From positions 53,134,001 through 53,198,000 of the forward strand of contig OX597827.1 in the NCBI GenBank assembly GCA_951406725.2: DNA of 64,000 nt. Reading direction: 5' to 3'. A program made the position numbers. This DNA is from Octopus vulgaris. Taxonomy: Eukaryota. How positions within the stretch are numbered: position 1 is the first letter of the stretch; each line of letters starts with the position of its first letter. Shown here piece after piece: positions 2,637 through 4,423 of the stretch.

Positions 2637-3092
2637 TGATCACAATACCCTGTGATCACAATATAGTGGCGAAAGAATTTGACAAGATTAGTAAATATAA
2701 AGACCTGCCAATAGAAATTGAAAAAATGTGGCATTTCAAGGCGACTACAGTACCAGTGATTGTAGGATCTCTAGGAATGATAAAAAAAGGTACTGAAACC
2801 TATTTGAAAATGATTCCAGGCTTACCATCCCTACAGGAAGTGCAAAAAATCGTATTAACTGGAACGGCTCATGTACTGAGAAGAGCACGATCGCTGTGAA
2901 AATAACATCCATCTATGAATTTATTTATTTATTCATTTTTAAATACATATTTTATCTGTGAATTTGCACGTGTAATCTGGGAATGCATACAATGCCCTTC
3001 TCTGCCCTAGGTGTATGGAAAACACTCGGCAAGAAACGGAAGAAAATTTGAAGAAAGAAGGAAAAAAAACATAATTATTATTATTATTATTA

Positions 3093-3178
<86 letters not shown>

Positions 3179-4423
3179 GTTCAGGTCACTGCTTGGAATC
3201 GAACTCGGAATCTTGGGGTTAGTAGCCCGCGCTCTTAACCACTACGCCATATGCCCGTGGGCATATGGCGTAGTGGTTAAGAGCGCGGGCTACTAACCCC
3301 AAGATTCCGAGTTCGATTCCAAGCAGTGACCTGCACAACAACAACAACAACAATGATAATAATAATAATAATAATCAAGCGGAGATAAAATTGGGGAAGT
3401 GAGATGGTGGAGAGGCCACTAGCATTTTGGAACACTGTCATATTCTCTGATGAATCCAGATTTGCACTATTTCCTGACAGTGGTCTGGAGACTGAATTTG
3501 ATGTGAAAACATTGCAGCCAACAATGAAACACGGTAGCTATTCAGTGATGGTCTGGAGAGCAATTTGGAACAATAGTTGACAGAGCTGGTGGAATGTGAG
3601 GGAAACATAAACTCAGATAAATATGAGTTAGTATTGCAGAAAGGATTCCTTCCAATCTTCTTCAGTAGTGAAATAATTAATGACGATTCTTTATTTATGG
3701 AAGATGGGGCTCCTTGACACACGGCTAAAATGACCCAAGATTAGTTGGATGAGAATGACATTAAAACGCTTCCCTGGCCAAGCCAGTCACGTTATGGAAC
3801 ACCTCTGGGGCATAATGAACAGGACACTTCATAAAAAGAACAAGACAGCATCCTCGAAACCAGATCTTTTGAGATTATCACAGGAAACTTGGCAAGAAAT
3901 TCCGCAAGAGAATATTCGTCATCGCATCAGTAACATGCCTGATAAGGTCTTTGCATTGAAAAATGCAAAGGGCATGTCTACTAAATATTAAATATTCACA
4001 TTATAACAATTAATAAATAATTTGAATGCATAATTTCAGATTTAAATAGATTTTAATGATTATAAGGGTATCTACTTCTGTCATGTCTGTATATATATAC
4101 TTAAATATAGACACATACTATATAAATAAATACTTAGAGAAATACATACATAAATACATATGCACAATACAAATAAATGTACGAAGAGGAATATATACAC
4201 ACACGTATCTTTAGGGATATACACAGAGATTTGGTTTGCAAGATTATTTAAGTGAGTTCGTGTGTTGAAGCATATTTTATTGTGTCTCGGGAGAGTCATT
4301 GTCTTTTAGTGCCTTATTATTTAACAAACTCACCAGTAAAGTTTCCACGCATTTACTTATTTATTTCTTCTAAAATTTTCGTTGCGTCTTGCAACCTTGT
4401 CAATAGTCGTTGACACAACAATA

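What the first reader, a model, noticed from the sequence alone, without database searches (positions are those of the whole stretch)
3072..3375. Perfect head-to-head palindrome of a 75-nt tRNA-like unit with outward triplet tails
Seen: two identical 75-bp tRNA-like units, each with Pol III A and B boxes, joined 5'-to-5' by 2 nt. Each runs outward into TAA/CAA repeats. There is no SINE body or LINE-derived tail. Known: ordinary SINE insertion by target-primed reverse transcription (TPRT) does not give this geometry, while Penelope-like elements often carry an inverted copy at their 5' end. Inference: a minimal non-autonomous element mobilised by a fold-back mechanism, using either Penelope-like or TAA-targeting Dong machinery. 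Read-through transcription would give a perfect dsRNA hairpin, a possible ADAR or Dicer substrate.
Basis: partly seen in the sequence, partly recalled or inferred. Interest (0 to 1): 0.75.

Follow-up and report, generated by a model that had tools for sequence, protein, structure and literature searches.

The report
Head-to-head pair of tiny SINE copies
Two identical copies of a 75-base tRNA-derived mobile element sit nose to nose inside a TAA repeat next to Dong-like retrotransposons, most likely a one-off slip during copy-and-paste insertion and not a new kind of mobile element.

Summary
Arms 3182-3256 and 3259-3333 are perfectly complementary over 75 nt, with a 2-nt spacer (GT). Each arm carries an A box and a B box at tRNA positions 8 and 52, and each runs outward into a triplet tail. 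The unit is tRNA-like only at promoter level: the Rfam tRNA model and ARAGORN both reject it.

The window holds no other copy, and no eukaryotic genome collection was available, so the palindromic-versus-solo census could not be made.

The context is informative. The palindrome starts one TAA unit after the 3' end of a 5'-truncated LINE. That LINE family ends in (TAA)n, its protein matches only R2-type retrotransposon proteins among solved structures, and its copies are nested in TAA arrays, as published for R4/Dong elements.

Best reading (about 0.5): one aberrant retrotransposition by this machinery, in which both broken target strands primed cDNA or the cDNA snapped back. Supporting points are that the centre falls at tRNA position 1, that the tails are not mirror images, and that R2 proteins are reported to make snap-back junctions in cells.

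Rivals are a recurrent fold-back family, a DNA-level inverted duplication, an assembly artefact and two independent insertions. Interest is moderate.

The parts
3074..3181 (-). Tail of the left (minus-strand) unit. Read outward it is AAC, 27 x AAT, AAC, 7 x AAT. On the + strand this is (ATT)35.
   Evidence: TRF; sequence
3182..3256 (-). Left arm: the 75-nt tRNA-derived unit in reverse complement.
   Evidence: Perfect complement of 3259-3333; A box 3239-3249; B box 3195-3205
3257..3258 (.). 2-nt spacer GT between the two 5' ends. It may be non-templated bases added at a template jump (inference).
3259..3333 (+). Right arm: the 75-nt tRNA-derived unit. Unit position 1 corresponds to tRNA position 1.
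   Evidence: A box 3266-3276; B box 3310-3320
3334..3375 (+). Tail of the right unit: CA (CAA)6 TGA (TAA)6 T. Part of it may be the TAA array that was the target.
   Evidence: the array ends where similarity to 5089-5146 begins
2637..3073 (+). 5'-truncated copy ('LINE2') of a (TAA)n-tailed, R2-type (Dong-like) LINE. Its 3' UTR ends ...AACATAA and is followed at once by the left tail in the opposite triplet polarity.
   Evidence: 73.7% identity to 44252-43818; 3'-end alignment; C-terminal translation
1..2329 (+). 'LINE1': a related LINE copy (RT, zf-RVT, C-terminal nuclease-like motif) that runs off the window start and ends in (TAA)5.
   Evidence: Pfam
2330..2523 (-). An unrelated tRNA-derived SINE ('SINEb') nested in the TAA array. 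In its own sense its tail is (TTA)n.
2524..2635 (+). (TAA)37 array between SINEb and LINE2, the microsatellite into which the elements are nested.
   Evidence: TRF
3062..3069 (-). A8 on the + strand, which is T8 on the minus strand: the first possible Pol III terminator for the left unit, directly after its tail.
   Evidence: sequence; the terminator rule is recalled knowledge
3425..3428 (+). First TTTT downstream of the right unit (possible Pol III terminator), 50 nt past the tail.
   Evidence: sequence
43818..47701 (-). 'LINE3': the longest copy of the same LINE family in the window. It has an RT ORF at 44136-46826 and ends in (TAA)7 at 43798-43819.

Best explanation
This is a real genomic structure made in one faulty retrotransposition event.

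The element: the unit is a 'simple' tRNA-derived SINE. It consists of a 75-nt Pol III-promoter-bearing head and a (CAA)n(TAA)n tail, with no body. I infer that it is copied by the (TAA)n-tailed, R2-type (Dong-like) LINEs that fill this locus, through the shared TAA tail.

The event: it was inserted into the TAA tail or array downstream of a Dong-like copy. The bottom strand of the cut TAA array primed a normal full-length cDNA, which is the right arm.

The left arm then arose in one of two ways (inferred, not shown):
- (a) Preferred. The upstream top-strand end (...CATAA-3') also primed on a second SINE RNA. The usual 5'-junction template jump then landed on the 3' end of that second cDNA and added 2 non-templated bases (GT).
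- (b) The completed cDNA snapped back and copied itself.

Either route gives two full-length units joined 5' to 5', with tails pointing outward. The perfect arms imply that the structure is young or is kept identical by arm-to-arm conversion. Any hairpin RNA would need read-through transcription from outside.
For: 1. The symmetry centre lies within 1 nt of tRNA position 1 in both arms, because the A box starts at unit position 8 and the B box at 52. That is where a Pol III SINE transcript, and hence a full-length cDNA, should end. A random DNA fold-back would not be expected to land there.
2. The tails are not mirror images. The first flanking base differs, the right tail has (CAA)6 where the left has a single CAA, and one has a TGA unit where the other has TAA. 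The 150 arm bases show no difference. This fits two separate templates better than self-copying.
3. The asymmetric flanks rule out a long fold-back: a LINE 3' UTR lies on the left and unrelated sequence on the right.
4. The partner machinery is on the spot.
   - LINE2 ends one TAA before the left tail.
   - All 3 LINE 3' ends in the window carry TAA units.
   - The family's protein hits only R2 proteins in the PDB: 5 of 5 hits, best 4.3e-28 for one protein and 3.6e-43 for the profile. The alignment runs from the RT through the CCHC knuckle.
   - No APE endonuclease domain was found in 4 full-length homologues or in the window ORF upstream of the RT.
5. Literature:
   - R4/Dong elements carry an RT and a REL-endonuclease and target (TAA)n, also in a crustacean (PMC7998251, passages).
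   - (TAA)7 lies directly upstream of Bombyx Dong (PMC3774820, passages).
   - R2 proteins in human cells give 'snap-back' 5' junctions, also after full-length cDNA, with upstream target joined to antisense insert, and they template-jump (PMC11371274, passages).
   - L1 twin priming yields two opposed cDNAs that can share sequence (PMC12016303, passages).
Against: - Only one locus was seen. There is no other copy of the unit in 64 kb, so even the claim that it is a dispersed SINE is untested.
- The SINE-LINE partnership rests on the shared TAA tail and on proximity alone. The unit and the LINE 3' UTR share no sequence.
- In route (a), a top-strand end ...TAA-3' is not fully complementary to a (UAA)n tail; by my reckoning 2 of 3 positions pair.
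- In route (b), a 2-nt loop is very tight for intramolecular priming, and the tails should have started as mirror images.
- Twin priming is very rare for short SINEs in humans: 1 of 5936 germline Alu insertions (PMC12016303).
- The window holds other perfect palindromes that owe nothing to SINE 5' ends, so DNA-level palindrome formation or an assembly quirk also operates here.
- The nuclease motif of the LINE C-terminus was recognised by eye from memory, and placement in the R4 clade was not tested by a tree.
- No reads were available to confirm the assembly.
Confidence: 0.5

Rival explanations
1. One reading: the palindromic dimer is the normal or a recurrent form of a non-autonomous family. 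It would be produced by, or mobilised through, a fold-back step, so that many such hairpin loci exist in the genome.
For: - The geometry is exact: full-length arms with a 2-nt spacer.
- R2-type enzymes do make snap-back products (PMC11371274).
- The only hit in 1.84 billion representative proteins, P0121, carries a related unit in antisense frame (19 of 30 residues identical). About 82 residues downstream it carries the translated sense head, ending at the same stop (9 of 14 identical). That is a head-to-head pair with a spacer of roughly 250 nt in another, unnamed record.
Against: - There is no second palindrome or solo copy of this unit in the window.
- The P0121 query spanned both arms, so the search favoured paired copies. 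Its E-value is borderline (4.6e-4), its spacer is different, and it shows no poly-Leu/Ile run where a TAA tail would be.
- The non-mirrored tails argue against one fixed palindromic master.
- Closely spaced inverted repeats are unstable and depleted in the human genome (PMC3215922, passages).
Confidence: 0.13
2. A solo SINE insertion was later duplicated in inverted orientation at the DNA level, by a replication template switch or hairpin repair, without reverse transcriptase.
For: - The window has other perfect palindromes: 36-nt arms with a 1-nt loop at 4580-4652, and 49-nt arms around an (AT)n tract at 5200-5337.
- In the second case one arm is part of a repeat with four other copies in the window, at 14789-14872, 8920-8999, 11150-11229 and 12371-12450. 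A DNA-level inverted duplication therefore did happen nearby.
Against: - The centre coincides with the presumed transcript start, tRNA position 1. It does not sit on the internal CATATG palindrome or on an AT tract.
- The tails differ from the first base onward, although the arms are identical.
Confidence: 0.13
3. Assembly or sequencing artefact: a fold-back chimeric read or a local consensus error created the palindrome.
For: - Several perfect palindromes lie within 2.2 kb.
- Microsatellite-rich sequence is hard to assemble. PMC7878876 (passages) reports over 19% SSRs in penaeid shrimp genomes, a composition this window resembles.
- No reads were available to check.
Against: - Symmetry stops after about 117 nt, and the flanks are different, coherent sequences: a LINE 3' UTR that aligns to another copy, and a right flank that aligns to 5089-5146.
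- The tails are not mirrored.
- The centre sits on a biologically meaningful boundary.
- A missed-adapter or fold-back read would mirror everything.
Confidence: 0.1
4. Two independent insertions of the same SINE landed by chance, or through target preference, 2 nt apart in opposite orientation.
For: TAA arrays here attract repeated insertions: LINE1, SINEb and LINE2 are nested in one array.
Against: - All 3 (TAA)n-tailed LINE copies lie in one orientation relative to their TAA units. One of the two SINE copies would break that rule.
- The second insertion would have to hit within 2 nt of the first copy's 5' end, where there is no TAA.
- The arms are identical over 75 nt.
Confidence: 0.05
5. 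A palindromic MITE or foldback DNA transposon whose terminal inverted repeats happen to derive from a tRNA-like sequence.
For: The structure is a 152-bp perfect inverted repeat. Another small palindrome at 4580-4652 looks MITE-like.
Against: - There is no direct target-site duplication. The flanks continue the inverted symmetry (GTT on the left, CAC on the right) and do not repeat directly.
- Outward-facing promoter boxes and triplet tails are SINE features.
- There is no other copy in the window.
Confidence: 0.03

Closest known systems
Simple tRNA-derived SINEs, a head plus a tail with no body, such as rodent ID elements (recalled, not looked up here)
   Same: - About 75 nt long.
- Internal A and B boxes at tRNA positions.
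- Nothing between the head and a simple-repeat tail.
   Different: - The tail is (CAA)n(TAA)n, not poly(A).
- The cloverleaf is too decayed for the tRNA models.
- Copy number is unknown.
- It occurs here as an inverted dimer.
R4/Dong clade non-LTR retrotransposons, which are (TAA)n-specific and carry a REL-endonuclease. This is the proposed partner, not the palindrome itself.
   Same: - The neighbouring LINEs end in TAA units and sit in TAA arrays in sense orientation, as described for Dong (PMC7998251; PMC3774820).
- Their protein matches only R2-type proteins in the PDB.
- They have a CCHC knuckle followed by a C-terminal region with a PD...D...K-like motif (the motif is recalled).
   Different: - Clade placement was not tested by phylogeny.
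- The N-terminal Myb-like domain was not tested.
- No published Dong-dependent SINE turned up in one literature search. That search was poor, so this is not a claim of absence.
Snap-back 5' junctions of R2-protein-mediated insertion (PRINT experiments, PMC11371274)
   Same: - The upstream target is joined to an antisense copy of the insert.
- The event occurs after full-length cDNA synthesis.
- The enzyme is of R2 type (passages).
   Different: - Those are engineered transgenes at rDNA in human cells.
- The paper describes priming on internal cDNA positions. Here the arms are complete and only 2 nt apart, and the tails are not mirrored.
Twin-priming 5' inversions of L1 (recalled from Ostertag and Kazazian 2001; passages of PMC12016303 were seen)
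   Same: Two cDNAs of opposite orientation, made at one target and joined head to head. They can share sequence.
   Different: - In L1 one RNA is primed at the tail and internally, so the two parts cover different segments.
- Here both arms are full-length with their own tails, which implies two RNAs.
- The enzyme is of R2 type, not APE type.
- The event is very rare for Alu (1 of 5936).
Inverted SINE pairs (IRAlu-type) as dsRNA sources, and closely spaced inverted Alu pairs
   Same: Two SINE copies in head-to-head orientation that can form a long hairpin.
   Different: Alu pairs arise from independent insertions, are 65-85% identical, and are strongly depleted at spacers of 24 bp or less (I:D 0.076; PMC3215922). 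Here identity is 100% and the spacer is 2 nt.
Penelope-like elements with an inverted 5' copy
   Same: An inverted copy at the 5' end.
   Different: - No GIY-YIG or PLE reverse transcriptase signal was found in the 99 of 131 ORFs scanned.
- There is no hammerhead ribozyme hit.
- The tails match the local R2-type LINEs instead.

Membership tests
tRNA-derived SINE | Internal Pol III A and B boxes at tRNA spacing | tested here: met
   The A box matches exactly at unit position 8. The B box matches 10 of 11 at position 52. The consensus motifs are recalled.
tRNA-derived SINE | Recognisable tRNA ancestry (cloverleaf or sequence) | tested here: inconclusive
   No Rfam tRNA hit. ARAGORN finds nothing even at 70% threshold. 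Only the D arm and the promoter boxes are readable by eye.
tRNA-derived SINE | Many dispersed copies in the genome | not testable with these tools
   Only the two arms are present in 64 kb. No eukaryotic genome collection was available. Protein-proxy searches gave 0 hits and 1 hit.
tRNA-derived SINE | Simple-repeat 3' tail shared with a partner LINE | tested here: met
   The tails are (CAA)n(TAA)n. The local LINE family ends in (TAA)n.
R4/Dong clade (neighbouring LINEs) | RT plus C-terminal restriction-like endonuclease, and no APE domain | tested here: inconclusive
   PDB hits are R2 proteins only, aligned from the RT to the CCHC knuckle. There is no APE Pfam hit. The nuclease motif was seen only by eye and was not confirmed by a model.
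R4/Dong clade (neighbouring LINEs) | Insertion in (TAA)n in sense orientation | tested here: met
   3 of 3 LINE 3' ends are followed by TAA units. LINE2 also has (TAA)37 upstream. Compare PMC7998251 and PMC3774820.
R4/Dong clade (neighbouring LINEs) | Phylogenetic placement of the RT within R4/Dong | not tested
   No named reference sequences were at hand.
Penelope-like element | GIY-YIG endonuclease and PLE RT, with hammerhead ribozymes in the terminal repeats | tested here: not met
   No GIY-YIG domain in the 99 of 131 ORFs of 90 aa or more. No ribozyme family in Rfam.
MITE / foldback DNA transposon | Terminal inverted repeats flanked by a direct target-site duplication | tested here: not met
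   The flanks continue the inverted symmetry and are not direct repeats.
L1-type twin-priming inversion | Inverted 5' part and direct 3' part copied from one RNA, with a single tail | tested here: not met
   Both arms are complete units and each has its own tail.
mir-885 microRNA precursor | Score at or above the Rfam gathering threshold | tested here: not met
   40.6 bits against a threshold of 66, on both strands. The match is a by-product of the hairpin.

The most novel reading that the evidence does not exclude
Head-to-head dimers are a regular outcome when a Dong-like, two-nick R2-type enzyme mobilises a SINE that is little more than a promoter and a TAA tail. Both cut strands of a TAA array can start cDNA synthesis, so the genome is repeatedly seeded with perfect hairpin loci that could feed dsRNA, editing or small-RNA pathways. 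In that case the unnamed record behind P0121 would be an older example of the same process.
Probability: 0.12. Interest if true: 0.7.

Novelty: new variant of a known kind. Interest (0 to 1): 0.4.

Why it matters
If the favoured reading holds, this is a natural footprint of a side reaction of R2-type retrotransposition: snap-back, or priming from both target strands. So far that reaction is documented mainly in engineered insertion experiments.

It would also point to a SINE that depends on a (TAA)n-specific Dong-like element through its tail alone.

A 75-nt perfect palindrome with a 2-nt spacer is expected to be fragile. It could therefore mark a very recent event, and so currently active elements. 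If transcribed through, it would form a near-perfect 75-bp dsRNA.

If it is a single accident or an assembly error, it matters little beyond annotation.

Tried and rejected
- **Other copies in the window.** blastn-short and a permissive blastn found only the two arms. The next best hits were 12 nt (E 0.2) and 56 nt at 62.5% identity (E 0.44). The latter, at 58660-58715, turned out to be a different SINE.
- **Census by proxy.** I searched protein collections with the one open antisense frame that reads through the centre. The search for homologous proteins found nothing at near lengths and nothing at longer lengths (29 candidates, none scored). The exhaustive representative search gave one borderline hit, P0121.
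- **P0121's cluster members and names** could not be listed because the database was switched off.
- **Literature search for a 24-nt stretch of the unit:** 0 papers.
- **tRNA identity:** Rfam and ARAGORN were negative.
- **mir-885 and MIR1222 hits:** rejected as hairpin by-products below threshold.
- **Organism.**
  - The best named relatives of the RT are penaeid shrimp proteins, at 57% and 44% identity.
  - The SSR-rich composition resembles what PMC7878876 describes.
  - The Atlas gave no useful taxon.
- **Right flank as a Tc1/mariner remnant.** It looked so by eye, but Pfam found nothing in 3 fragments, so I dropped the claim.
- **PMC13486585.** I searched it for second-strand priming or inverted products and found no relevant passage.
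- **Search for Dong-dependent SINEs in print:** nothing relevant among the 15 papers listed of 21 found.
- **Not checked.**
  - Repbase and Dfam were not available.
  - Genome contigs holds only bacteria and archaea, so it was not used.
  - No supplementary files were opened.
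Full report
**1. What is there**

Reading 2700-3800 and scanning for repeats shows an inverted repeat with arms 3140-3256 and 3259-3375. The arms are 117 nt long and 94% complementary, with 2 nt between them. A base-by-base scan gives a perfect 75-nt core, 3182-3256 against 3259-3333, separated by GT.

The left arm runs into 3074-3181, which TRF calls (ATT)35 at 98% matches. 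Read outward from the unit it is AAC, 27 x AAT, AAC, 7 x AAT. The right arm runs into 3334-3375, which reads CA (CAA)6 TGA (TAA)6 T.

The structure cannot be chance: as RNA it folds at -181 kcal/mol, against a mean of -49 for shuffles (z -29.5; 0 of 200 shuffles as good). The window contains no N.

**2. How tRNA-like the unit is**

- The recalled A-box consensus matches exactly at 3266-3276 (+) and 3239-3249 (-). These are 2 of only 3 matches in the window, with 0.50 expected.
- The recalled B-box consensus matches with one mismatch at 3310-3320 (+) and 3195-3205 (-).
- These are unit positions 8 and 52, the canonical tRNA positions, so unit position 1 corresponds to tRNA position 1.
- The unit is not a tRNA. 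The Rfam tRNA model gives no hit at E<=10 on the region or on one arm alone, and none at E<=5 on the whole window.
- ARAGORN finds nothing there at default settings or at four relaxed thresholds.
- One arm folds no better than its shuffles.
- The sub-threshold mir-885 hit, 40.6 bits against a gathering score of 66 on both strands, is a by-product of the hairpin.

**3. Copies**

Sensitive blastn of one arm against the window finds only the two arms. The weak 56-nt, 62.5% hit at 58660-58715 is the head of a different SINE.

As a proxy I used the single open antisense frame that reads through the centre.

- The search for homologous proteins found nothing at near lengths and nothing at longer lengths.
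- The exhaustive search of 1.84 billion representative proteins returned one protein, P0121 (E 4.6e-4).
- In P0121, residues 74-103 match the antisense unit (19 of 30 identical). Residues 181-194 match the translated sense head and end at the same stop (9 of 14 identical).
- P0121 therefore carries a related pair in head-to-head orientation about 250 nt apart, in an unnamed record.
- This is a lead only.

**4. Context**

The palindrome sits in a stack of nested retroelements in a TAA array:

| Coordinates | Strand | Feature |
|---|---|---|
| 1-2329 | + | LINE1, with RT and zf-RVT, ending in (TAA)5 |
| 2330-2523 | - | SINEb, an unrelated tRNA-derived SINE |
| 2524-2635 | + | (TAA)37 |
| 2637-3073 | + | LINE2, 5'-truncated |

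- LINE2 is 73.7% identical to the 3' part of a long copy on the minus strand, LINE3, at 44252-43818.
- Aligning the three 3' ends shows that LINE1 and LINE3 run into (TAA)5 and (TAA)7. LINE2 ends ...AACATAA and then switches at once to (TTA)n, which is the left tail of the palindrome.
- On the right, the triplet array ends at 3374-3376, exactly where similarity to 5089-5146 begins (86%).
- The flanks are thus different, coherent sequences, and only about 117 nt on each side of the centre is symmetrical.

**5. What the LINEs are**

- The RT ORF of LINE3 (44136-46826, minus strand) has 2661 relatives at E<=0.001 among 8000 scored candidates. The best named ones are penaeid shrimp proteins, at 57% and 44% identity.
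- Four full-length homologues show RVT_1, three of them also with a weak, below-cutoff zf-RVT match. They have no APE endonuclease domain, and neither does the window ORF upstream of the RT.
- Against solved structures, 5 of 5 distinct hits are R2 retrotransposon proteins. This holds for one protein (best 4.3e-28) and for a 27-protein profile (best 3.6e-43). The alignment runs from the RT through the CCHC knuckle.
- The C-terminus that follows reads ...RPDIV...LIDMS.P...EK..KY.DL.... I recognise this from memory as the restriction-like nuclease motif of R2-type elements; it was not confirmed by a model.
- Passages of PMC7998251 state that R4/Dong elements have RT and REL-endonuclease domains, and that the Dong target is (TAA)n in an ostracod crustacean and in most insects, molluscs and cnidarians.
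- Passages of PMC3774820 show (TAA)7 directly upstream of Bombyx Dong in sense orientation.
- The local LINEs fit this description in tail, target and orientation (3 of 3 ends). Clade membership was not tested by a tree.
- No Penelope signal was found. There is no GIY-YIG domain in the 99 of 131 ORFs of 90 aa or more that were scanned. The 32 dropped ORFs lie in simple-repeat arrays, or overlap or repeat the RT ORF already scanned.
- No ribozyme family was found in Rfam.

**6. Mechanism**

Three facts constrain the origin.

- (a) The centre lies within one base of tRNA position 1 in both arms. That is where a Pol III SINE transcript should begin and a full-length cDNA should end.
- (b) Each arm has its own outward tail of the kind that the local LINEs carry.
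- (c) The tails are not mirror images, although the 150 arm bases show no difference. The first flanking base differs (A versus C), the right tail has (CAA)6 where the left has one CAA, and a TGA unit is set against TAA.

I conclude (inference) that both arms are full-length reverse transcripts made in one event at a cut TAA array.

*Preferred route.* The bottom strand primes the right arm as in ordinary target-primed reverse transcription. The upstream top-strand end (...CATAA-3') primes on a second SINE RNA and makes the left arm. The usual 5'-junction template jump then lands on the 3' end of that second cDNA, with two added bases (GT).

*Alternative route.* The finished cDNA snaps back and copies itself. 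Passages of PMC11371274 report exactly this class of 5' junction for R2 proteins in human cells. It also occurs after full-length cDNA synthesis, with upstream target joined to antisense insert, and the same paper reports template jumping. A 2-nt loop and the unlike tails fit this route less well.

L1 twin priming (PMC12016303, passages) is the nearest natural analogue. There, however, one RNA gives two different segments, and the event is very rare for Alu (1 of 5936).

It cannot be told whether the palindrome entered LINE2's tail or LINE2 entered later at the (TAA)/(TTA) boundary. This does not change the reading.

**7. Rivals**

It is not excluded, because the genome could not be searched. 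P0121 is the only hint in its favour.
- **DNA-level inverted duplication.** This has local precedent. A scan for perfect palindromes found 36-nt arms with a 1-nt loop at 4580-4652, 49-nt arms around (AT)n at 5200-5337, and 30-nt arms at 13645-13757. The 5200-5248 arm belongs to a repeat with four other copies in the window. None of these explains why the SINE palindrome is centred on the transcript start, or why its tails differ.
- **Assembly artefact.** It cannot be excluded without reads. It is unlikely given the short, bounded symmetry and the unlike tails.
- **Two independent insertions.** This would require a hit within 2 nt of the first copy's head, and in an orientation that the 3 TAA-tailed LINE copies never show.
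- **MITE.** This fails for lack of a direct target-site duplication.

**8. Function**

Each arm's promoter points outward. The left unit would meet T8 directly after its tail (A8 at 3062-3069 on the + strand), and the right unit a TTTT at 3425-3428 (the terminator rule is recalled). The Pol III transcripts would therefore each contain one arm only.

A hairpin RNA needs read-through from outside. The fold energy shows that it would be a near-perfect duplex, but no expression data exist here.

Closely spaced, highly identical inverted repeats are reported as unstable and depleted (PMC3215922, passages). This suggests the structure is young.

**9. Verdict**

- The structure is best filed as a new variant of known things: a simple tRNA-derived SINE with a TAA-type tail, caught as a head-to-head dimer made by an R2-type enzyme.
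- Interest is 0.4. It would rise if a genome-wide search shows that such dimers recur.
- Papers were seen only as search listings and passages. No supplements were opened.
- Twin priming (Ostertag and Kazazian), R2 template jumping, ID elements and the Penelope 5' inversions are cited from memory.

Noticed in passing
window 4580-4652: Perfect 36-nt palindrome with a 1-nt loop, beside a (TA)46 array. There is no other copy in the window. It may be a small MITE or a fold-back product.
   Followed up: partly
window 5200-5248 / 5289-5337: Perfect 49-nt inverted arms around an (AT)n tract. The left arm is part of a repeat with four other copies, at 14789-14872, 8920-8999, 11150-11229 and 12371-12450. 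This looks like a DNA-level inverted duplication across an AT microsatellite.
   Followed up: partly
window 13645-13674 / 13728-13757, and 12971-13000: Perfect 30-nt inverted arms 53 nt apart, with a third identical copy 650 nt upstream.
   Followed up: no
window 1-3375: Nested insertions in one TAA array: LINE1, a minus-strand SINE, (TAA)37, a 5'-truncated LINE2, then the palindrome. TAA arrays here act as repeated landing sites.
   Followed up: yes
window 2330-2523 (-), about 52000-52210 (+), about 27620-27826 (-): A second family of tRNA-derived SINEs carries (TTA)n tails, the opposite triplet polarity to the LINE and unit tails. It lies in TAA or CAA arrays in the matching orientation, so both strands of such arrays seem to be used as primers.
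   Followed up: partly
window 3227-3290, both strands: Sub-threshold Rfam hit to the mir-885 precursor (40.6 bits, gathering score 66, E 3e-07), with real sequence resemblance in the stem. I took it as a hairpin by-product.
   Followed up: no
window 19759-19832 (-): ARAGORN calls a tRNA-Ser(AGA) here, but the Rfam tRNA model does not reach E<=5. It carries an exact B box and is probably the head of another SINE or a tRNA pseudogene.
   Followed up: partly
protein P0121 (unnamed record): A 194-aa predicted protein contains a related unit in antisense frame and, about 82 residues later, the translated sense head ending at the same stop. That is a head-to-head pair roughly 250 nt apart in another genome. 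Its source could not be listed.
   Followed up: partly
window 8240-9280, 10463-11507, 11689-12450: Near-identical blocks with long (AT)n arrays and the same short tandem units (for example 8830-8852 = 11060-11082, and 9244-9279 = 11472-11507). This is a local tandem duplication of about 2.2 kb.
   Followed up: no
window 24577-25506 (-), 50628-51296 (+): Pif1-like helicase fragments (PIF1 and Pif1_2B domains), as in Helitron-type elements.
   Followed up: no
window 42908-43873 (-): An APE-type endonuclease ORF (Exo_endo_phos_2) lies directly downstream of LINE3's (TAA)7 tail. It belongs to a different LINE into which, or beside which, LINE3 inserted.
   Followed up: no
window 26074-26105 and 28526-28558: Short (TTAAC)6 and (CCTAAC)5.5 arrays, which resemble arthropod-type telomeric repeats, lie in the interior of the window.
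   Followed up: no
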